A stretch of DNA of 63,893 nt, counting the filler, from Chrysochromulina tobinii (taxonomy: Eukaryota), in NCBI GenBank assembly GCA_001275005.1. It is 6 parts of 6 records of this genome, joined end to end, with 100 filler letters (N's around TTAATTAATTAA, not from the genome) between each part and the next. Parts side by side here need not be neighbours in the genome. Positions count along the whole stretch, not along the records: positions 16,180 to 25,102 come from JWZX01000241.1; 5 more parts are not named here. One strand, 5' to 3'. The first letter of the stretch is position 1, and every line of letters begins with the position of its first letter. Below the pieces are notes generated by a model. The model had not been told where the DNA came from and did not search any database. It worked only from the letters and a program-made list of their open reading frames with translations. A program made the position numbers and the translations under genes. Shown here piece by piece: positions 6,117 to 57,989 of this stretch.

Positions 6117-9100
6117 TCAGAATCGTCGGAAATCGCCTTGTTCAAGCGGTTTCGTCGCCGGGGCTACGGAAGGGAGAACGGTTCGCCACTTTGACTCATC
6201 CAGGCGAACGGTTCGCCACTTTGACTCATCCACGACGCGCTTCCAGTACTCGTCGCCATCCCTAGCGTTCTGCTCTAGCTGCTCGAGGCGGTCACTGTCC
6301 TGAGTCATTTGTTCATTATTGTAGAGCTTGAAAAACTCGAGCTTCGGCCACTGCTTCTCAAGAAGCTGCTTCTCGAGAAGCCACGCCGGAGGCACCGTGC
6401 CGGTCAATCGGTTGTTGGTCAAATCCACATTTTCGAGCGCCCGGCAGTTTGCGAGCGTGTCCGGAATCGCACCGCTCAGCTGATTGTGGTTCAGGAACAA
6501 ATCCTTAAGCTTCGTCAGGCCCGCTTCCTTGTGCAACCGAGTGAGCTCCTCAAGCCGTGCCTCATCCTTTTTGCCCATCTTGGAGCCGCTTTTCTTGGCC
6601 TCTTCTTTCCGTTTCGCGAGCTCATTCATCTCCTCCTTCTCCATGGCCGACAGGCCACCGAACATCGATGGGATGCAGCCCGTCAGCTTGTTGTTGTCGA
6701 GACAAAGGCGCTCTAGATTTTTGAGCTCGCCGAGCTCTGCAGGCAGCTCGCCAGTGAGCTCGCAGAAGTTGAGGCTCAAAGTTTTGAGCTTCGTCATGAG
6801 CTTGAAGGCCCTCGGGATCGGACCTTTGAGGCTATTATAGCCCAGATGTAGGGTGTCCATGTCTGCACAGGTCGCGAGCTTCTCCGGGAGCGTGCCGTGA
6901 AGTCCACGGCCCTTGAGGTCGAGCCTACGCAGCCGGCGGCAATGGAGCTGCTGGTCCCGCTTGTCGATGAGCAGGTCGTGCAGCGAGCAATTGAAGTCAT
7001 TCAACTTTGACTGCCGCAACGAATCCTCAGTGACAGGAGGCCAATGTTTTTTTCTTGTCCCCTTCCACGCAGCCTGCCACGCAGCCGAAAAGCCTGCCAG
7101 CGAAAGCTCAAGTAGAGGGCACTCGTCCTTCTGCAGCAGCTCTTGTAGCTTCTCCTGATGCCCATCGAGCGTTGCGTAGGGGCACTTGAGGCAGAGCACA
7201 ATGCCCCTACCCGCGCGACAAAGTGCTTGCTCGGTGAGCTGGCCCTGATGCTCAACCGTCTCCGGCTCGAGCGCACCGAGGATGCGCGCTCCCTTGTAAA
7301 GCACGTGAAGATCGTGCTTGAGATCAAAGAGTGGCTTGACGTGCAGCTGCAGCTCGGCGAGGATCCAGCCCGAGTCCTCAAGGTTGAGCCAAAGGTTGAG
7401 AAGGACGTCGCGGTTACCTCCGGCTTTAATTGCGTCGTAGTCGGGCTTGATGCGATCCTTGGCGCGGCAGACAATTGCGCGAGACAAGTGGGGCGATACC
7501 CCCTGATAGCCCTTGTGCTGGTCGTTGCCGGTCCAATGTCGCAGCTTGCCGTCGTCTCCGCTGGTGAGGAATCTCATGGCGACGGCCAACGCGTGCAAGG
7601 ACGGAAAGACAAGGGTGCAACGCACGAGATCGCAAAGCTTCCGGTAGTTGCCGGCATATTCTTCAGCAACCTTGGCGCAGCAGCGCGGCACGCCCTTGAT
7701 TGAAGGGCCCTTGTGTGTCACCTTGCCCTTCGCATCTGGGCACGTTTCCTCAACATGCGTCTGGACCGCCGTCATAACCTTCTCAAGCACTGGAACGGCT
7801 TTCTTCGCCTTGTGGATCAACGCCAGTAGAGTGTTGAGAGCATCGTCGGCGCCGGCGCCACTGGGTTGCACCATTTCCACATTGAGCTTGTTCACCTCTT
7901 CGCAGCGCACCTTCATGTACTCGAGTGCGTCTTTCTTGATTGCCGGTGCATCCTCCTTGTTGCGCTGCTTCTCGTCTTTGAGCAGCTTTGCGTACGCTGC
8001 GTCGAAACGGAAGACCGACTGGCTTAGGAGCGGGTTGTACTGCGAGATCGCGTTGTCACGCCGGTCAGGGTATCTCTTCTCCAACTTCTCCAAGTCCTTC
8101 GCCTTCTCCGAAATTTTCTTCTCGAGCTTTGTGATTTCCTTGTTGTGATTAGCAAGGTCTTGCTCGCGCATCAACTCTGTACCCATTTCCTTCATCTCCT
8201 TGAGCTGATGTGCGAGTTCATCGATGGTGGTCCTCATCCGAGTCTGCGCGTTGAGCATGGCCGAGCATTCCTCCACGCACAATGCCACAGGCACAACGGA
8301 CTTGCTCAGGTTGGACGAATCGAAGTGTTTGAGCAGCGCGTCAGCATCCAGAGGGTCGGGTTCCACTTCCTGCTGCTGCTCTTGCACCTTCGGCGGTTGA
8401 AATTCACCGTCTCGTGAGGAGTCGTCGGATCCTTTGACCGAGTGCAAGGCAACCCTCAGAGCCTCGTCTTGAACCGAATGGTCGAAGAGGAACATCTCGT
8501 CATCTTCCCGGAGCTCCTTTTCGAATCTATCGTGGTGCGATCGGTCCACTTGACCCGGCAGGACCTGCCCATTCGCCGCGCACGGGAACATGTTGTCAAA
8601 CTCTTTGCGTACGAAGTCCACGTTGACATCCCGCCCTGTGGTGAGCGCGCGCAAGCGGCCTCGGCTGTACACCATCTCCCAGGGCGCAAAGCAGCCGCAG
8701 ACAAAGACCTGGTAGTTGTGGTTCGTGCGCGCGCGACTCATCAGTTCTCTCAGGAACTTATCTGGCTCTTTGCCCATTGTGTCGTAGACGACATGGTAGC
8801 CAGCGACGAACGCACGGTCAACAAAGGCGTCCGTCATCTCCTTCTTTTTGTGCGGCCAGAGCATCTTCTGTCGCACGAGGAACTGCGAGCGCATGGTGGC
8901 GCTCGAGAGCGCGAGGTAGTGACCGTCGACAGTGAACCCGTCCTCTTGGAACTGGCCGTCGGGCGAAATCCACTTGGTAGGCTTCAGCCGGTCGCCATAC
9001 TCCTCCTGCACCGACGGCAACTTCGCTGCGTGAGCCCCGGAGATGCACAGGCGGTACTCGCGGCAGTACATTCGACACTCATCGGGGTCGAGGTGTACAA

Positions 9101-18845: not shown

Positions 18846-19504
18846 CCGACATCCAACGCACGAGGTGGCCAGGCGACGGGGTGAGAGCTCACGATGGCGA
18901 AATGCGACGGGGTGAGAGCTCTAGAATCCGCCAAACCCACAACCTCTTACGGCTCTGAAATGGACCGTGAAGCGTGCGTCGGTACAGAGGTGTGTCTCTT
19001 TCTTGCTCGAGTCGGCTGTCTCCGAGCAGTGAAATTGTGGCGGGCTGACTGGCGGGCGCGAGTCCGACTCCGAGCAGAGTGGTGCGTTGCACTCATGCAG
19101 TCGGGTTGACGCGTCGAACTTTGATTTGACCATGTGTTTACAGCCGAGCAATTTGACAGTACAGAGTCGCAGCTGTGGCAGCTCTGTAGGCCGTGTGTAA
19201 CTGTGTATCGAGCCGTCCGCACCGGGGCCCCCGCGCCCCGCGGGCGCCACCGAGCACCGTTAGAGCACCGTGCACCGACGATTAATTACACGGGTGCGTT
19301 GTTCCATTGTAAGTTTGCGAACCCCGCGTCGGTCACACGTATCACACGCCGGTCGGAAGCCTTGTTATCTATACGCTATACGGTATGCTCGCTATGGACC
19401 CGACGGGTAGATCGCTAAGCGTGAGACGCTGAGACGGGAGCGGAGTGCTTTTCCGCTCCCCTATCCGTCACACTCCGATCTCCGTGACTCGTCCGACTCA
19501 CGCG

Positions 19505-22500
19505 TCACAGCAATGATACGCTGGACTCCATGAACTCCACGTACTCCGCCTCGATGGCGTGTTTGGACACAAAGTCCCACCCGTTGATGACGATCGAATC
19601 GTGCTGTGTGCTGGGCGCCGACTGGACCTTGCTCTCGCTGTCGGCCATGCGCACAGCCACGTCGACGGCCGCGCGCTGCTTCTTCCTGAGCTTGTGCTCA
19701 GCCTCCTTCATGCGCGAGCGGTCTTCGACGTACGAACGGAGAGGCGAGGGCAGGCGAGCCTGGTCGACAAGCTCCCACTCCGGGTTGCGCCAGTACTTGT
19801 GCGCCTTGACCATGGCAAACGCGGCCGGCGTGTTGGCATGCTTGCCACCGCCGAGCCGCTTCTCGACCTTCCACTCGGTGAGTTGCCGAATTAGGTCGTG
19901 CAGCTGCTCGTCCCGCCTGCCCTCCTCGTTCAGCAGATAGGGCTTGCGCCACTCGACCTTATGGTCGATGAAGCGCGGCTCGTCGCCGTAGGGCAGCTGC
20001 TGCTCGGTCATTTCGTAGAGCAGTACGCCGAGCGTGTACCAATCGGCCGGCCCCGAGTACTTCGGGGCGCCCTTGCGTCTCCCATGCCTCACCTCGGGCG
20101 CCATGTAGCACGGTGTGCCGCACAATTCTGCCGAGAAGGGCATGCTGCCCGTGCCCCCGACCGCGAGCCCAAAGTCGATGAGGCGCACGTGGCCAGCCGC
20201 GTCGAGCAGCAGGTTCTCGGGCTTCAAGTCGCGATACAGGATGAAGAGGGAGTGCAGGTAGCCGAGCATGCAAGTCACCTCGAGGCCAACGAAGCGCACC
20301 TGACTTGGGGTGAGCCGCTCGTCGGTGAGCGCAAAGACGGAGAGGTCGCCGCCCGGGCACGCGTCCATAACGAGCACAACGTACGCCGCGTTCTGGAAGG
20401 AGTAGGCGAGGTTGACCACGAGCGCGTGGTGCATCTTGGCATGCAGCTGCTTCTCGAGCAGCACGATCTCGCGCCAATCTGCGCCTTGGCCAAAGCCGCC
20501 CTTGAGCTCCGACTTCTTCATCACTTTCATCGCGTACACTTTGCCGCAGTCGCGCTTGACTACCTCGAGCACCTGCCCGAAGCCGCCCTCGCCCAGGATC
20601 TTGATCGCCTTGAACTGCTCCATGGACGGCACCACCAAAGTCTTCTGCAGCAGCGAGAGCACGTAGTTGTACTGTGACGAGGCGAGGAAGCCGGCGAGGC
20701 AGGCGGCCTCGAGGGCCCCCGTGACCGCCTGCTGCACGGGGTCGAAGATCGTGCGCAGCTTGGCGGGCGCCATGGCGGGCGCATCGGCGGCCACGTGAGC
20801 CTCGAGCTCGTTGATTGAGCTTGCCATCAGGCAACCGATGGCCCGGGGGGCGTCAGGCGCCAAGAATTTGGCAAAGGTCTGTCGTACAAGTGCGAGCACA
20901 AGCTGCGGGTCGGGCTCAGCCCTGATGGCGCGCAGCTCTGTGACGAACTCGAGCTGATGCATCGGCACGCCACCCAGCGTGAAGGCGAGCACCTTGGGGA
21001 GCGGTGCCAGCTCCGCCGCGCTCGTATCCTTGGAGACTGCGCGCGGCATCGCGACCATCGAGAGGCGTGAGGCGAAGCCAAACAGGCTGCCAAGCACTCC
21101 CCTCTCGTCGCTCCGGTTGGCCGGCGGTGAAGGCGCACGCGCCCCATCTGCCGGCGCCTCCTCCGCCCGCGCGGCCGCTTCAGGCTTGAAGATGCTGATG
21201 GGCGCCGAGGCGGGCGCCGTGGGCGGTGGCGCCTGCTGGTCCAGCGAGCGCACGTAACGCGTGAAAATGGTGAGGTACGCGGGGTTGGACAGGATGTGGC
21301 GCATATCAATGGGCGCCCTCTCGGGCAGAACGACCTCCTTGTAGTCCGAGGCAAAGTCGCGGTTCAGTCGCGAAAGGCGTTTCGCCTGGTCGACGGCGAG
21401 CAGGCAGAAAAACTTGCCCATGAGCTCATCGTTCCCTTCAAAGAGCGTCTGCAAGTAATCGGCGCGCAGGCGCAGCAGAACCGCCTCGTCGCTGTCGACC
21501 ACCACGCTCGCGGCCGCGGTGCCACCGAGTAGCAACGAGCGTTCCCCAAAGACTTCTCCCGCAGTGCGGTGGCCGACGCAAACTGACTGCGCCCGCCCCT
21601 TCAATTGTAGCTCCACTCGGCAACTACCATCCACCACTTGATAGAGGGCGCGTTGATCGTCGCCCTCCTTGATGACCAAGTGCCCGCGCTTGAGCCGCAG
21701 CGAGTCCGCGCCGCGCAGGAAGAGGCGCCACTGCTCCTGCGTGAGCTTCGCGAGCTCTGAGTGAACCGCGAGGTTGGCTGCGCCACCCGCCACGCCGCCG
21801 CCAACATGGGCGCCTACCGCATTGGCACTGTCGCTGCCCTTCATCATGACCAGCACGGCGTTGTCGACGACGCCAGAGCCGCGCATGTCGGCAGTGACCA
21901 CTTCCGGCGCGCACTCCTCCTGTTCGGCCTTCTGGATCTTGGAGAGCTCGGACATGTCCATCGCTTGGACACGTGCGCTCTCAATAGAGCGACTCACGTG
22001 GTCGCGGATGGAGGCCGAGACGACGAGACTGAGTGACAAGGACTTGCACTCAATGTCGATAACGCCCTGCCACTTGCTCGGAACGGGGCTGCTGCTGCCA
22101 CTGCCTCTGCCCTCAACGAACGCCGCGTCCGGTAGCCGCACGGACAACACGTCCGCGAGGGCGATCACGCGATGGCTACTGAAGCCGAAGAGGGCGAAGT
22201 CGAAACATGCGTGCGTCTTGAAAAGGTACAGCTTACCAGAATGGCTTTGACCGTCGACCACAGAGTTCTCCTCGATTGAGACGGCACAGTCGCAGTGCAG
22301 CACCAGCTCAAGGTTCGCGGGCAGCCCGAAGCCTATCGCCACCTCTCTCGACGGCCGGTCGAGGCTCTCCGGAAGGATTGCGAGCGCCGCGTCCGAACGG
22401 CCGCCACCGCCCCATCGCGGCTGCGGCGCCGCTGATTGGAAGAGCGAGTTGCGCATGCCGGCAGATATCTCCGAGATGCGTTCGGCGAGCATGCCACCGA

Positions 22501-22885
22501 GCAGCCGAAAGAAGCCGCCAGCGAGCTGCGGGTTGCTCGATAGCATCTGCATGAGCTCGTATTGGGGTACGTCAATGACGGTCACGGTGTCGCTGGACGC
22601 CTCAAGCGTGACCGTCGCCGTCTGCCCAAGAAGAAATGAAAGCTCACCGAGAAGCGAGCCCTTGCCGCGCGTGCCGATCGACTTATACGCTCCTCTGCGC
22701 TCGCGCATCATGATGACAATCTCTCCCTCGACGATGAGGAAGACGCTGCTGACATTCTGGCCATCGACGATGAGCCGATCGCCGCGCTGGAGAGTTCGCT
22801 GCTTTCCGGCTCTGAGAAAAAAGTGCATGATCTTCTCGGCGCTGGAGCCCTTCGAGAGCAGCGATACCGATTGGTTCGCGCCCAT
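19505..22885 (-). CDS. cNMP-binding x2 / GRAM / RGS / GRK-like AGC Ser/Thr kinase
   Basis: MGANQS N-myristoylation-like start; two CNB folds (GELSFL, GERSLL) flanking a GRAM/PH-like segment (HSGKLYLFKTHACF); RGS helices (ILSNPAYLTIF...KFL..DAP...IFD...FLAS); kinase motifs GEGGFG, YAMK, VNLAYSFQ, YRDLKPEN, DFG, GTPCYMAPE. Confidence 0.9.
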   Translation of the reverse strand: MGANQSVSLLSKGSSAEKIMHFFLRAGKQRTLQRGDRLIVDGQNVSSVFLIVEGEIVIMMRERRGAYKSIGTRGKGSLLGELSFLLGQTATVTLEASSDTVTVIDVPQYELMQMLSSNPQLAGGFFRLLGGMLAERISEISAGMRNSLFQSAAPQPRWGGGGRSDAALAILPESLDRPSREVAIGFGLPANLELVLHCDCAVSIEENSVVDGQSHSGKLYLFKTHACFDFALFGFSSHRVIALADVLSVRLPDAAFVEGRGSGSSSPVPSKWQGVIDIECKSLSLSLVVSASIRDHVSRSIESARVQAMDMSELSKIQKAEQEECAPEVVTADMRGSGVVDNAVLVMMKGSDSANAVGAHVGGGVAGGAANLAVHSELAKLTQEQWRLFLRGADSLRLKRGHLVIKEGDDQRALYQVVDGSCRVELQLKGRAQSVCVGHRTAGEVFGERSLLLGGTAAASVVVDSDEAVLLRLRADYLQTLFEGNDELMGKFFCLLAVDQAKRLSRLNRDFASDYKEVVLPERAPIDMRHILSNPAYLTIFTRYVRSLDQQAPPPTAPASAPISIFKPEAAARAEEAPADGARAPSPPANRSDERGVLGSLFGFASRLSMVAMPRAVSKDTSAAELAPLPKVLAFTLGGVPMHQLEFVTELRAIRAEPDPQLVLALVRQTFAKFLAPDAPRAIGCLMASSINELEAHVAADAPAMAPAKLRTIFDPVQQAVTGALEAACLAGFLASSQYNYVLSLLQKTLVVPSMEQFKAIKILGEGGFGQVLEVVKRDCGKVYAMKVMKKSELKGGFGQGADWREIVLLEKQLHAKMHHALVVNLAYSFQNAAYVVLVMDACPGGDLSVFALTDERLTPSQVRFVGLEVTCMLGYLHSLFILYRDLKPENLLLDAAGHVRLIDFGLAVGGTGSMPFSAELCGTPCYMAPEVRHGRRKGAPKYSGPADWYTLGVLLYEMTEQQLPYGDEPRFIDHKVEWRKPYLLNEEGRRDEQLHDLIRQLTEWKVEKRLGGGKHANTPAAFAMVKAHKYWRNPEWELVDQARLPSPLRSYVEDRSRMKEAEHKLRKKQRAAVDVAVRMADSESKVQSAPSTQHDSIVINGWDFVSKHAIEAEYVEFMESSVSLL

Positions 22886-23141
22886 GGCCGACTGTCTCCC
22901 TGCTGGAGGCACACCGTCGCCGGCCGGCGACCCTTCCCTATTGGTTTTGGTGCGAGGCTCCAGCAAAAGTCAGGACAAGTCAAGTTGTTGCTGCTCGGCA
23001 GTCGTGCGTGTTTACACGTAAGTTCCTGACAAAGTTGTTTCAAAGTACTTTTCGATCCCGAGAGATGGCGCGACAGGGTTTTTTTACGTCGCTAGTGAAT
23101 CACCACGCGGCCGCGACGCCTTTGGGCGCTTTGCCGAGGAG

Positions 23142-24449
23142 ATGTCGAGTGCTTCGACGTCACGATTGATGGGCGAGCTGCGCGACCTATCTCAGCAGAC
23201 GTTGCCGATAGTCTTCGCGCTGCCCGAGGAGTCGAATATCCACCACTGGCACGCACTCATCCTGGGCCCGCCATGCACGCCGTACTCGTTCGGCATGTTC
23301 CACTTTGACCTGCGCTTCCCGTCTGACTACCCCAACTCCCCGCCCAAGGTCAGCATTCTGACTACCTCCGGTGGGCAGGTTCGCTTCAACCCGAACTTAT
23401 ACGCCACGGGCAAGGTGTGCCTCTCCATCCTGGGGACGTGGCGGGCAGAGCACTCCGGTGAGCAGTGGTCTGCGGCACAGAGTGTGCAGTCCGTGCTGCT
23501 ATCCATCCAGAGTCTCATGCACGACGCGCCGTACCACAACGAGCCCGGCTTCGAAGAGGACGACGGCTCAGGCGACGTGCAACGGTACAATGAGAAGATC
23601 ATGCACGAGACGCTGCGCGTGGGCGTGTGCGAGGTGATGGAGGACACGCTCGAGCAGCGCGCCGTCTCGAGCAACGGTGCGCATCCGGCCTTCGCCAACG
23701 TGCGCAGATGCTTCTTCTGCATGTACTGCGAACGGCACATGGCGGAGGTGGAGCGGATGAGCGAGCGCAAGGATCTCAAGGACGGGTCGGCCTTCAAGAT
23801 GATGCCATTCGAGTGTCCGTCCAATGGCATGCACGGCGCGTACCAGTGGGCGAAGACGCGCGCGCGCCTGGAGGCGATTCGCGCGGCGCTGCTCGCGGAG
23901 ATAGAGAGCTGGCGCGAGACGGGCGCCGAGCAGACGCTGATGCTCAAGGAGAAGCACGATGCGTCGGTGTCGAGCTGTGTGCACCACCTGCAGCAGCAGG
24001 AGGAGCGCCTCAGGCTCGAGCCACTGCAGGGCGCATCGGCGGGGCCGTCGTGCGCAAACGCGTGCGTGTGGGAGGCGAGCATCTTCGGCCCATCCGATTC
24101 GGATTGGGACGGCGGCATGTTCTCGGTCGAGATCGTCTTCCCTCCTGACTTTCCGGAGTCGCCTCCCTTCGTCACCTTCCTTACACCCATGTTCCATCCG
24201 CAGATCTCACCCGCGGGCGTGCCGTATCTGCGCTCAGTGCTCATGTGGCACTGCTGTGAGCCCAAGGACCGCACAGTCCGCTCGCTCGTCAGCCAGCTCA
24301 TCCAGCTTCTTGCGGCGGACCCCTCGCCTGAGCCCGCCACGCATCTCAACCTCGAAGCGGCCGGCCTCCGCTTCTCGCGCATCGCGGACGAGCAAAAGGA
24401 GTACAAGCGCCGTGTCAAGCGGTGCGTACAGCGCTCCATGGACGGCTGA
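23142..24449 (+). CDS. Tandem ubiquitin-conjugating domain protein (UBE2Z-like active E2 + C-terminal UEV-like domain)
   Basis: Domain 1: GPPCTPY..G.F.F...FP.DYP..PP, RFNPNLYATGKVCLSILGTW (catalytic Cys), PYHNEPGFE. Domain 2: W.A.IFGP....W.GG.F....FP..FP..PP.V.F.TPMFHPQIS with no Cys at the active-site position. Confidence 0.9.
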   Translation: MSSASTSRLMGELRDLSQQTLPIVFALPEESNIHHWHALILGPPCTPYSFGMFHFDLRFPSDYPNSPPKVSILTTSGGQVRFNPNLYATGKVCLSILGTWRAEHSGEQWSAAQSVQSVLLSIQSLMHDAPYHNEPGFEEDDGSGDVQRYNEKIMHETLRVGVCEVMEDTLEQRAVSSNGAHPAFANVRRCFFCMYCERHMAEVERMSERKDLKDGSAFKMMPFECPSNGMHGAYQWAKTRARLEAIRAALLAEIESWRETGAEQTLMLKEKHDASVSSCVHHLQQQEERLRLEPLQGASAGPSCANACVWEASIFGPSDSDWDGGMFSVEIVFPPDFPESPPFVTFLTPMFHPQISPAGVPYLRSVLMWHCCEPKDRTVRSLVSQLIQLLAADPSPEPATHLNLEAAGLRFSRIADEQKEYKRRVKRCVQRSMDG

Positions 24450-28276: not shown

Positions 28277-29911
28277 GTGAACGATTTCTCAACTACGGAA
28301 TCAGTGTCGAAGCCGCGGGAGGGTCTCACACGATTCAATGTTAGATGCCGCCTCCAAAATCCCAATTTCAACTCTTGGCGCCCCAAAAAGCCCCACCTCA
28401 GAACGCACGCCGCCTCCGAGACGGAGAGTGATCCCTCAAAACCGGAGCCTGACCCTGTGCCGGAGCCCGACCCTGCGCCGGAGCCCGATCCGGTGCCAGA
28501 GTCAGCCACGGGCCAGAGCCAGAGCCAAGGCCCAAACCAGCCAGAGGTCATTCCACCGCCGCCAGCCACGTCTCCCCCTCCCAAGCCGGTGATGTCGAAA
28601 GGCGGACCAGTACGTACCCTTGAGCTCGTTCGAGCCAAATTTGACAAGCTGCTTGAGATAAACGCCTTCAGACAGACCTTTTATGCCGATGTCTTCTTCG
28701 AGTTCAAAATTGTTGGCGGTGCTCTCGACGAGGACCTGATTAGAGAGGGTGACGGGCCGATGTCACAGCACTTTCCAAAAGACACATTGCGGCCGAGCGC
28801 GCGGTGGTACCTCAACCAATTCGACTTCTCCAACTCCGTCCACCACACCGTCCACCAAGACACGGTGGCGCAGGTGCGCGGGGAGGACATTTACCTTCGG
28901 TACCGCGCTTTCGGCGAATTTGCGGAGCAGCTCGAGCTGGAAAACTTTCCCTTCGACTGCCAGGAGCTCACGGTGAAACTCATCGTTCACACCGTCATCG
29001 GCGGCATTGTGGGCGTTGAGATAACTGCGCCAGGCTACGTCGACGAGTATTCCGGGCCCAAAGGCATACGCGCGATCCCGCGGAACATGTACAAATTGCA
29101 AGATGCGCTCAAGAAGGAGCCGCAGTCCCTCTCCCATTTTGACATCTTCAAGGTGGACACGTTTCACTTGCACAACGTGTGGACCATGTGCAATAAAGTC
29201 TACGGCCACATCGAGGTGCATGCGCATGAATTCCCGCAGCTGGCGATGACGTGCCTCGTGCGGCGCAAGCCCGACTTTTACATGCACAACGTTGTCATCA
29301 CGATGATCGTGCTGGAGCTGATGATGCTCGCCGCCTTTGCCATCGAGGGCGCCACGACCGAGGGCGAGGCTGGGCGCATCTCTCTCGCCCTCACCCTGGT
29401 GCTCACCTGCGGCATCTATCGGCAGACGAACGCGCAGTTCTCGCCGCCAGTCGCGTGCCTGACGCTTCTCGACGAGTACATGCTCGTCTCCTCACTCATC
29501 ATCGGCGGCTCCGTGCTCGTGCATGCAATTCTGGCTCTCGAATCCCGCTGCTATGGATCGACTGAATGGGAGCCCTTTCTGATCGCCCTCCTGTTCCTGA
29601 GCTGTCTCGGCCAGCACGTCTACATTGTCCTCTGGCGCGTGATGCCTGCGGCCGAGGAGGCGCGCGCTCTCGGCTTTACCGACGTGGTGATGCCCCTGGG
29701 CTTAACGGAAGATAGCAATAAGAAGCGCATCAGCCTCGTCGGGCTCTTCAGCACTGCTAAATTTTTGAGCCGTGTCGGTCCTCATGACAAAGCGAAGCCG
29801 GCCTTGGACTCCTTCAAGAGCCAAAAGACTGTGAAAGTCTATTCGTCGGAAAAGGGAGCCTACACGTACGTCAACCTGGAGGATAGCGGAGCGGGCGCAA
29901 CAACAGCATGA
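28277..29911 (+). CDS. Cys-less (Pro-loop) pentameric ligand-gated ion channel subunit
   Basis: ECD strands (EINAFRQTFYADVFF, GEFAEQLELENFPFDCQELTV), pre-M1 VRRKPDFY, four TM helices including M2 GRISLALTLVLT and M2-M3 PPVACLTLLDEY. First ATG is at 28592; the start is uncertain. Confidence 0.85.
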   Translation: MNDFSTTESVSKPREGLTRFNVRCRLQNPNFNSWRPKKPHLRTHAASETESDPSKPEPDPVPEPDPAPEPDPVPESATGQSQSQGPNQPEVIPPPPATSPPPKPVMSKGGPVRTLELVRAKFDKLLEINAFRQTFYADVFFEFKIVGGALDEDLIREGDGPMSQHFPKDTLRPSARWYLNQFDFSNSVHHTVHQDTVAQVRGEDIYLRYRAFGEFAEQLELENFPFDCQELTVKLIVHTVIGGIVGVEITAPGYVDEYSGPKGIRAIPRNMYKLQDALKKEPQSLSHFDIFKVDTFHLHNVWTMCNKVYGHIEVHAHEFPQLAMTCLVRRKPDFYMHNVVITMIVLELMMLAAFAIEGATTEGEAGRISLALTLVLTCGIYRQTNAQFSPPVACLTLLDEYMLVSSLIIGGSVLVHAILALESRCYGSTEWEPFLIALLFLSCLGQHVYIVLWRVMPAAEEARALGFTDVVMPLGLTEDSNKKRISLVGLFSTAKFLSRVGPHDKAKPALDSFKSQKTVKVYSSEKGAYTYVNLEDSGAGATTA

Positions 29912-56830: not shown

Positions 56831-57766
56831 TCACTTGAAGACGGCGACGGTGAGCGGCACCTCCCTCAGATGCACCTGGAAGAGGCCGCCACCCATCTCC
56901 ATCGCGTCGACCACCTTGAGCTTCGTGCCTGGGTAGAGCAAGACCTCCGCCTCGCTCGCTACGCCCTGGAACGCCGAGTAGCGCTGCAGGTCGACGCCGT
57001 GCACGATCTCGATCATGAAGACGGTGCGCACGCCGCTGGTGCCGAGGAACATCGGGTTCGTCAGCGTATGCAGCTGCTTGGTCGTCGACGAGAAGGCCCA
57101 CCACCAGACCTCCTTGTCCTTGGGGTACTGGGCGCGCAGGTCGACGCCCTTGACGCCGCGCCAGACGGAGCCCGTGTACTTGGGCAGCTTGCTGCGCGCC
57201 GTCAGCATCAGCTGCAGGTACGGGAAGAAGGGAATGAGGGCGGAGCGGTCGCGTGTGCGCAGCAGTTGGTTGAGCGTCGGGTAGAAGTCGCTCTGTGCCG
57301 TGTACAGCCACAGCGCGCCCGCCTCGTCCGCGTCGAGGCCGTGCGGATCGGCCGCGGCAAGCTGCGCCCCCGCCTCACTCGCCATGAAGGCGTGCGCGTC
57401 GATGTCTTCGACGCCGCTCGCCGCCGCCGCGTCCATGAGCGACAAGCGCACGCACTTCATCACCCCTGTGATCGGGCCCATGAGCTCGAGCGGCTCGTCG
57501 GAGACGTCGGCGATGCGTGCCTGCTGGGCCACACTCTCTGGCGCAGCCTTCGCGGCCGTCGCCTTCGCGGCCGCCTTCTTCTCGGCCGCCGCCTTGTCCG
57601 CCGCCGCCTTGTCGGCCGCCGCCTTGACGGCTGCCGCCTTCTCAGCCGCCACCTTCGCGGCCGCCGCCTTGTCGGCTGCCGCCTTGTCGGCCGCCACCTT
57701 CTCGGCCGCCGCCTTGTCGGCCGCCGCCTTGTCGGCCGCCACCTTCGCGGCCGCCGCCTTGTCCCA
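56831..57766 (-). CDS. NAD:arginine-type ADP-ribosyltransferase (R-S-E clade) with (AAADK)n linker; 5' part unresolved
   Basis: LWLYT....FY..LN..LR, VWRGV (R), WAFSSTT (S), FLG..G.RT.F.I, YSAF....EAEVLL.PG (ExE). A probable acceptor cacag lies at 57767-57771 and the upstream exon(s) are not identified. Confidence 0.88.
57545..57765. repeat. 15-nt-period low-complexity coding repeat (AAA[DE]K/VAA[DE]K)
   Basis: ccgccgccttgtcgg-type units in tandem. Confidence 0.85.
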
Positions 57767-57989
57767 CCTGTGTCGAAGCGCACGGGGAACGCACGCTGTT
57801 GGCGCTGAGCAGTGGCGCCCATCACGGCGCGTCATCGCATGCCATCAGGAAGCGCGAGGGCTTGCGAAGGGCGGTCGTGAAGCTGGCAAGGCAGTCACAG
57901 AGGCAGAGGAGGCAGCAGCGCCCTCTCCGAGGACAACGGCGTGGGGCGACGGCGTGGGGCGACCGAGTGCTGCCTGAGTGCTGCTGAGT

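What the first reader, a model, noticed from the sequence alone, without database searches (positions are those of the whole stretch)
19505..22885. cNMP-GRAM-cNMP module fused to an RGS + GRK-type kinase
Seen in sequence: MG..S lipidation motif; CNB1 (~22470-22800); GRAM/PH-like (~21980-22320); CNB2 (~21390-21740); an RGS-homology domain with a Pro/Ala insert (~20660-21310) running directly into an AGC kinase with GRK hallmarks (F...KILG.GGFG.V, CGKVYAMK, VNLAYSFQ). Both phosphate-binding cassettes keep GE but lack the canonical Arg (GQTATV, GGTAAA). Established: RGS+kinase defines GPCR kinases, and the CNB-GRAM-CNB block is known from Dictyostelium GbpC/GbpD. Inference: a membrane-anchored kinase integrating cyclic-nucleotide (or another ligand) and G-alpha signals in one chain, an unusual signalling node for an alga.
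Basis: partly seen in the sequence, partly recalled or inferred. Interest (0 to 1): 0.8.

Follow-up and report, generated by a model that had tools for sequence, protein, structure and literature searches.

The report
Algal GRK-like kinase with nucleotide sensor
A haptophyte alga encodes a kinase predicted to be built like animal GPCR kinases, but with a likely second-messenger sensor module in place of their receptor-docking tip, so it likely answers to a small molecule such as cGMP rather than to receptors or G proteins.

Summary
The gene is real: one 1126-aa open frame (22885..19505, minus strand) reading MG..S, CNB, GRAM, CNB, RGS-homology (RH), intact AGC kinase, C-terminal helix. It belongs to a multi-subfamily haptophyte family; 35 full-length proteins were retrieved, with named members in Emiliania, Prymnesium, Haptolina and Chrysochromulina, and databases label some of them PKG. 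It is not PKG. A confident model (pLDDT 82.6) overlays GRK2 over about 450 residues, up to the RH helix that follows the kinase, whereas PKG overlays at 16-38 A. GRK ancestry is unproven: the kinase alone scores best on RSK/AKT, the RH alone on R4 RGS proteins, and no GRK was available for a tree. The GRK receptor-docking N-terminal helix is absent. The phosphate-binding Arg is missing in 127 of 127 family CNBs, but also at that site in a GbpC-architecture protein, and GbpC is cGMP-activated, so ligand binding stays open. G-alpha input is unsupported: RGS GAP residues are not conserved (0 of 103 complete sets). Best reading: a lipid-anchored GRK-type core gated by a GbpC-type sensor, likely cGMP. 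I found no description of this architecture in ten literature searches.

The parts
19505..22885 (-). Whole coding frame, 1126 aa (P0001)
   Evidence: GC3 0.82; RNA-library contig collinear over 19480-22077
22868..22885 (-). MGxxxS, predicted N-myristoylation signal (motif rule recalled)
   Evidence: 24 of 35 full-length members start MG, many MGC
22445..22843 (-). CNB1 (aa 15-147); cassette at 22604-22648 with Ser at the PKA A202 site and Ala at the R209 site
21962..22351 (-). GRAM / PH-like domain (aa 179-308)
   Evidence: below cut-off in P0001, above in 11 of 15 chosen relatives; fold in model
21356..21745 (-). CNB2 (aa 381-510); cassette at 21503-21547, same Ser/Ala signature; its last helix (486-510) ends about 15 residues before the RH domain
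21233..21310 (-). RH domain, first helices (aa 526-551)
20969..21232 (-). Disordered Pro/Ala insert (aa 552-639) at the place of the RGS S-E-E-N loop; this loop is 15-183 aa (median 23) in 90 relatives
20636..20968 (-). RH domain, helical bundle and helix leading into the kinase (aa 640-750); R711 invariant (126 of 126); GAP residues not conserved
19736..20617 (-). AGC kinase domain (aa 757-1050), catalytic motifs intact (K787, E811, D886, N891, D904); Glu920 at the activation-loop phospho-site
19571..19588 (-). AGC hydrophobic motif (aa 1100-1105) with Asp1104 at the phospho-site; acidic in 124 of 136 relatives
   Evidence: register read from overlay end points with PKA, PKG, AKT
19508..19570 (-). 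C-terminal helix (aa 1108-1123) overlaying the second RH segment of GRK2; E1114 invariant (136 of 136)
   Evidence: GRK2 segment 513-547 defined in PMC6499889

Best explanation
The gene encodes one chain with CNB-GRAM-CNB, an RGS-homology domain and an intact AGC kinase, predicted to fold like a GPCR kinase, likely held at a membrane by a myristoyl anchor and likely switched by a cyclic nucleotide (most likely cGMP) binding its CNB domains rather than by a receptor or G-alpha. Shown: domain order, family-wide conservation, intact catalytic motifs, acidic residues at both AGC phospho-sites, loss of the cassette Arg and of RGS GAP residues. Predicted (model): the kinase sits inside the RH domain as in GRKs. 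Inferred: the kinase needs no priming phosphorylation and is restrained by the RH domain; ligand binding moves the last helix of CNB2, which runs almost directly into the RH domain, and so does the job that the receptor-bound N-terminal helix does in GRKs; GRAM adds membrane targeting as in GbpC.
For: Architecture kept in 35 full-length proteins across divergent subfamilies (19 groups at 60% kinase identity among 127 domains). RH+kinase profile ranks GRK3/GRK2 first in PDB as one stretch (271/268 bits). Model pLDDT 82.6, pTM 0.71, overlays GRK2 29-533 over 449 residues at 3.5 A and GRK1 over 464 at 4.1 A. Cassette signature GE-x-S with a small residue at the Arg site is conserved (Gly 125, Glu 117, Ser 107, Arg 0 of 127) and shared with P0113, a Tieghemostelium protein with the full GbpC domain order. 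GbpC is activated by cGMP and needs GRAM for membrane association (PMC3188802, PMC6320773 passages). GRKs need no activation-loop phosphorylation and are activated through the N-terminal helix or release of RH contacts (PMC8002388 passages). Glu at the activation-loop site in 35 of 49 DFG-type members; hydrophobic-motif site acidic in 124 of 136.
Against: No binding or activity data. GbpD has the same module and one paper calls its cNMP domains non-functional while a review says both bind cGMP. The first CNB of P0113 has a Lys and an Arg near the Arg site that could substitute; CNB1 of P0001 has none there. Family CNB1 and CNB2 form their own clades (0.93, 1.0) outside the main GbpC/D clade (0.97), deep nodes unresolved. 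Arg-less CNBs elsewhere bind nucleosides, heme or phenolics. A CNB2 contact with the RH or kinase was not tested. The model may echo GRK structures that AlphaFold knows. The DMG subfamily keeps Ser at the activation-loop site (101 of 102), so priming is not family-wide.
Confidence: 0.43

Rival explanations
1. The CNB domains bind no ligand; as reported for GbpD they are a scaffold, and the primed kinase is controlled by membrane lipids or a protein partner through GRAM.
For: Arg absent in 127 of 127 family CNBs, with Pro at that site in 40; GbpD domains called non-functional (PMC3188802 passage); both AGC phospho-sites acidic in this subfamily.
Against: The cassette Gly, Glu and Ser are strongly conserved over deep subfamilies (125, 117, 107 of 127), also in members with degraded kinase motifs (P0013-P0015); GbpC works with an Arg-less site.
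Confidence: 0.22
2. The CNB pocket senses a different small molecule (a nucleoside or another metabolite) and gates the kinase in the same way.
For: Trypanosome PKA regulatory subunits lost the same Arg and bind nucleosides (PMC10959531 passages); the best PDB sequence match of the N-terminal half is a Euglena PKA regulatory subunit (E 9e-9); non-canonical cassettes bind varied ligands (PMC2246266).
Against: Nucleoside binding there rests on a Glu at the A202 site; this family has Ser or Thr there (119 of 127) and no Glu.
Confidence: 0.18
3. One reading: the kinase integrates cyclic nucleotide and G-alpha signals, the RH domain binding G-alpha as a GAP or, like GRK2, as an effector.
For: RH-only profile scores canonical R4 RGS proteins (39.7 bits) above GRK RH domains (29.3-25.4); E. 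huxleyi has 4 G-alpha and 3 G-beta genes (supplement table of PMC3971589); GRK2 binds G-alpha-q through helices 5-6 without GAP residues (PMC6499889), a mode my motif test cannot exclude.
Against: Asn at the EVN site 6 of 115, Asp 6 of 133 and Arg 7 of 132 at the D..R sites, all three 0 of 103; EN before helix 4 in 0 of 90, that loop being hypervariable; kinase-less RGS-CNB-GRAM-CNB proteins in the same hit list keep EVN/EIN-type motifs. Helices 5-6 are variable in the family.
Confidence: 0.13
4. It is an ordinary cGMP-dependent protein kinase with inserts, as automatic annotation says.
For: UniRef and Atlas labels; Foldseek lists Plasmodium PKG first by E-value.
Against: Those PKG overlays have rmsd 36-38 A and target TM 0.33, against 0.53-0.69 for GRKs; PKG is not in the best 60 for the kinase profile; PKG and PKA end at model residue 1103-1104 while this chain goes on into the RH helix; no cassette Arg; GRAM and RH present.
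Confidence: 0.04

Closest known systems
G protein-coupled receptor kinases (GRK2/3, GRK5, GRK1) and GRK-like proteins reported in Heterokonta and Haptophyta (PMC3307776, PMC3971589)
   Same: RH domain running into an AGC kinase, with a helix after the kinase that overlays GRK2's second RH segment; Arg in strand 1 at the GRK2 R195 column (118 of 130 relatives; Lys in P0001); Asp in GGDL; non-acidic residue where PKA/AKT-type outgroups have GTPEY Glu; DMG instead of DFG in 104 of 157.
   Different: No receptor-docking N-terminal helix; a 510-aa MG-CNB-GRAM-CNB module instead; no C-terminal PH or prenylation motif in P0001; DFG kept in P0001; kinase alone closer by score to RSK/AKT, RH alone to R4 RGS.
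Dictyostelium GbpC / GbpD CNB-GRAM-CNB module
   Same: Same three-domain order and the same Ser / no-Arg cassette signature (P0113).
   Different: N-terminal instead of C-terminal; output is an AGC kinase via RH, not RasGEF-Roc-TKL kinase; CNBs form separate clades.
cGMP-dependent protein kinase (PKG)
   Same: Tandem CNB domains upstream of an AGC kinase in one chain.
   Different: GRAM between the CNBs, RH around the kinase, no cassette Arg, different domain placement (rmsd 16-38 A), chain continues past the hydrophobic motif.
Nucleoside-activated kinetoplastid PKA regulatory subunit
   Same: Loss of the cassette Arg.
   Different: Has Glu at the A202 site; this family has Ser/Thr; separate R and C chains there.

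Membership tests
GRK | RH domain directly followed by an AGC Ser/Thr kinase | tested here: met
GRK | Kinase inserted into the RH domain, last RH helix after the kinase tail | tested here: met
   Predicted model only: helix 1108-1123 at pLDDT above 90, overlay to GRK2 529-534 and GRK1 531; E1114 136 of 136
GRK | About 20-30 residue N-terminal receptor-docking helix | tested here: not met
   The N-terminus is MG plus CNB1; the helix before the RH (486-510) is matched by the CNB profile in kinase-less CNB proteins too
GRK | Kinase domain groups with GRKs in a tree | tested here: inconclusive
   No GRK sequence was retrieved; tree shows a family clade (100) apart from PKA and SGK/AKT-like outgroups; profile scores RSK 246, AKT 245, YANK 229, GRK2 227, PKA 223
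GRK | DLG in place of DFG (recalled; seen in GRK2/3) | tested here: not met
   P0001 DFG; family DMG 104, DFG 52, DLG at most 1 of 157
GRK | Phosphorylates activated GPCRs | not testable with these tools
   needs assay
Canonical RGS GAP | S-E-E-N, E-V-N and D..R G-alpha contact motifs | tested here: not met
   0 of 90; 0 of 103 complete sets; columns mapped on RGS5/RGS2
PKG | Canonical cassette with Arg in adjacent CNB domains | tested here: not met
   Arg 0 of 127; all 13 Arg among 146 other CNBs lie in two canonical proteins; GRAM between the CNBs
PKG | PKG-type kinase ending at the hydrophobic motif | tested here: not met
GbpC/GbpD-type module | CNB-GRAM-CNB order with Ser / no-Arg cassette | tested here: met
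GbpC/GbpD-type module | CNBs nest within the GbpC/D clade | tested here: inconclusive
   separate family clades, weak deep nodes, 128 columns
GbpC/GbpD-type module | Binds cGMP | not testable with these tools
   needs assay

The most novel reading that the evidence does not exclude
Haptophytes rewired a true GRK into a second-messenger kinase: the receptor-docking helix was replaced by a GbpC-type sensor whose Arg-less pocket reads cGMP or an unknown messenger and switches the RH-clamped kinase. This would be a third design of cyclic-nucleotide kinase beside PKA and PKG, expanded into many paralogues including pseudokinases.
Probability: 0.3. Interest if true: 0.85.

Novelty: new variant of a known kind. 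Interest (0 to 1): 0.62.

Why it matters
Haptophytes are major phytoplankton and their second-messenger effectors are known mostly from automatic labels; members of this family are filed as PKG or beta-adrenergic receptor kinase, so 'cGMP-PKG pathway' readings of haptophyte transcriptomes may include them. If ligand-gated, it is a new way to couple a CNB sensor to an AGC kinase and shows that the GRK core can be driven without a receptor. It also offers a 1000-residue, soluble test case for how Arg-less GbpC-type CNB domains recognise ligands.

Tried and rejected
No genome is held, so G-alpha, GPCR, cyclase and paralogue counts in this organism were not checked. The first fold (6 rows) failed, pLDDT 31. 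Alignments A3 and A5 put CNB1 fragments and amoebozoan proteins on CNB2; these rows were dropped for A6. Two searches meant to bring in GRK sequences gave none among the rows listed (94 of 94; best 120 of 466). The vertebrate hit P0234 is PKA-like. A CNB1+GRAM profile found only CNB structures among the best 60, and fold searches were filled by kinases, so the GRAM fold was not matched to a solved structure. The Atlas search on the RH-kinase part did not complete; the whole-protein search gave the family's own cluster and PKG-like clusters. A silent-stretch control for the RNA runs was not obtained; 22968-23098 has no cover in the 4 runs, a weak hint only. A 413-nt joint (AT..GC ends, 22 letters on one side, one contig) was rejected as an intron. 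Prokaryote genomes gave 2 generic kinase loci. No earlier findings. C-terminal CVSAI of the DMG subfamily was considered as CaaX and rejected (Cys is fifth from the end).
Full report
Observation. The window holds one open frame from 22885 to 19505 on the minus strand, 1126 aa. Pfam finds two cNMP domains, RGS just above cut-off, a kinase, and GRAM below cut-off. In 15 full-length relatives that I picked, GRAM passes in 11, RGS in 11, both in 10. A contig from a polyA RNA library lies collinear over 19480-22077 without an intron; no piece spans the whole gene and no DNA control was obtained. A 6-nt insertion near 21316 in 3 of 4 runs matches two extra residues in close relatives, so it is an allele difference.

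Family. Searches of the N-terminal 762 aa and of the RH-kinase part gave a large family. With profiles from alignment A6, 52 stored proteins had all six parts, 35 after leaving out members fetched; 24 of the 35 start MG. Named members come from Emiliania huxleyi (fragments), Haptolina brevifila and Prymnesium parvum; the window's protein shares a 90% cluster with a Chrysochromulina parva protein. The kinases form one clade (SH-aLRT 100) with a DMG subfamily, DFG subfamilies and three members with degraded motifs (54 rows; no GRK or PKG in the tree).

Kinase. Catalytic residues are intact and conserved (Lys 146 of 149, catalytic Asp 157 of 159). The activation-loop phospho-site is Glu in P0001 and in 35 of 49 DFG members, Ser in 101 of 102 DMG members. 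PKA and PKG overlays end at model residue 1103-1104 and AKT 477-479 at about 1108-1112, which places the hydrophobic motif at 1100-1105; its phospho-site is Asp or Glu in 124 of 136. This register is read from end points, not from a printed alignment.

GRK question. For: the RH+kinase profile ranks GRK3 and GRK2 first as one continuous stretch (271, 268 bits; AKT and RSK 257; PKA 240). The model from 130 rows has pLDDT 82.6 and pTM 0.71. Among 48,161 representative chains GRK2 is first (Z 35.2, 449 aligned, 3.5 A, chain 29-533), tied in Z with PKC (34.5, about 320 aligned); GRK1 aligns 464 residues. In the second look AKT1 (Z 36.4, 309) and GRK2 (35.5, 447) tie. GRK2 513-547 is the RH segment after the kinase (PMC6499889, passages), and this insertion marks GRKs (PMC3307776, introduction). 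Against: kinase alone gives RSK 246, AKT 245, YANK 229, GRK2 227, PKA 223; RH alone gives RGS5 39.7, GRK3 29.3, GRK2 25.4; so the top rank is a sum. The receptor-docking helix is absent and DLG is not kept. I therefore say it is built like a GRK (about 85%) and descends from one (about 60%), and do not file it as a GRK.

Not PKG. Foldseek lists Plasmodium PKG first, but at 36-38 A rmsd and target TM 0.33, against 0.53-0.69 for GRKs.

RH and G-alpha. Mapped on RGS5 and RGS2, the GAP motifs are not conserved: Asn 6 of 115, Asp 6 of 133, Arg 7 of 132, all three 0 of 103; the loop before helix 4 varies from 15 to 183 aa and never ends in EN (0 of 90). The invariant positions are R711 and the helix into the kinase. 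A GAP role is unlikely. GRK2-style effector binding is not excluded, and E. huxleyi has G-alpha genes.

CNB domains. No family CNB has the cassette Arg (0 of 127); Gly, Glu and a Ser at the A202 site are conserved (125, 117, 107). The other hits share the signature; all 13 Arg among 146 lie in two canonical proteins (that group includes some unassigned family fragments). P0113, from Tieghemostelium, has the whole GbpC domain order and no Arg at the site either, though its first cassette has basic residues nearby. GbpC is activated by cGMP; GbpD is called non-functional in PMC3188802 (passages) and cGMP-binding in PMC11988041 (passages). Trypanosome PKA lost the Arg and binds nucleosides through a Glu that this family lacks (PMC10959531, passages). 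Family CNBs form their own clades. Missing Arg therefore neither proves nor rules out cGMP.

Mechanism. Inferred: myristoyl and GRAM hold the protein at a membrane; the kinase is primed by two acidic mimics and restrained by the RH domain, which in GRKs touches both lobes (PMC8002388, passages); the last helix of CNB2 ends about 15 residues before the RH and would pass ligand binding to it. Odds: cyclic nucleotide 0.43, no ligand 0.22, other ligand 0.18, G-alpha integrator 0.13, plain PKG 0.04.

Literature. Ten searches (listings only unless cited) showed no description of this architecture. PMC3971589 (passages; supplement 3 part 2 as text) reports GRK-like proteins in Haptophyta and lists cNMP-RGS and RGS-Pkinase but no cNMP-RGS-kinase combination; its trees are figures I could not see and supplement file 1 was not searchable. 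The C. tobin genome paper has no occurrence of 'kinase', 'RGS' or 'cGMP' in its main text (supplements not read). Also seen as passages: PMC6320773, PMC2246266, PMC6766888, PMC5784254, PMC5804921. The primary GbpC papers and the 2011 RGS survey by Anantharaman were not held and may bear on ligand binding and on novelty. Recalled, from no call: the myristoylation rule, PKA and RGS4 numbering beyond that in the cited passages, DLG as a GRK mark.

Verdict. Observation confirmed; interpretation partly supported. New variant of a known kind, interest 0.62.

Noticed in passing
window 23142..24449 (+): Protein with two ubiquitin-conjugating (UQ_con) domains, head-to-head with the kinase gene, start codons about 256 nt apart.
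   Followed up: no
window 6117..9677 (-): 1186-aa ORF with a Zeta_toxin-like P-loop domain and LRRs; the middle part resembles RelA/SpoT nucleotidyltransferase motifs (recalled, no profile hit).
   Followed up: partly
window 56831..57835 (-): ART (ADP-ribosyltransferase) domain after an Ala/Lys repeat.
   Followed up: partly
window 28592..29911 (+): No Pfam hit but an FPFDxQ motif and several hydrophobic segments as in pentameric ligand-gated channels (recalled).
   Followed up: partly
P0013, P0014, P0015: Family members with the full architecture but degraded Gly loop, catalytic loop or DFG motifs: likely pseudokinases.
   Followed up: partly
P0068, P0085, P0142, P0080: Kinase-less RGS plus CNB-GRAM-CNB proteins (Rigifila, Cavostelium, unnamed) whose RGS domains keep EVN/EIN-type motifs; candidates for nucleotide-gated GAPs.
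   Followed up: partly
P0064, P0109, P0060, P0108, P0119: The same Arg-less CNB pair is fused to RhoGAP, to RasGEF plus phospholipase D, and to other kinase types: a mobile sensor module.
   Followed up: no
window near 21316: In-frame 6-nt difference between the window and 3 of 4 RNA runs.
   Followed up: yes
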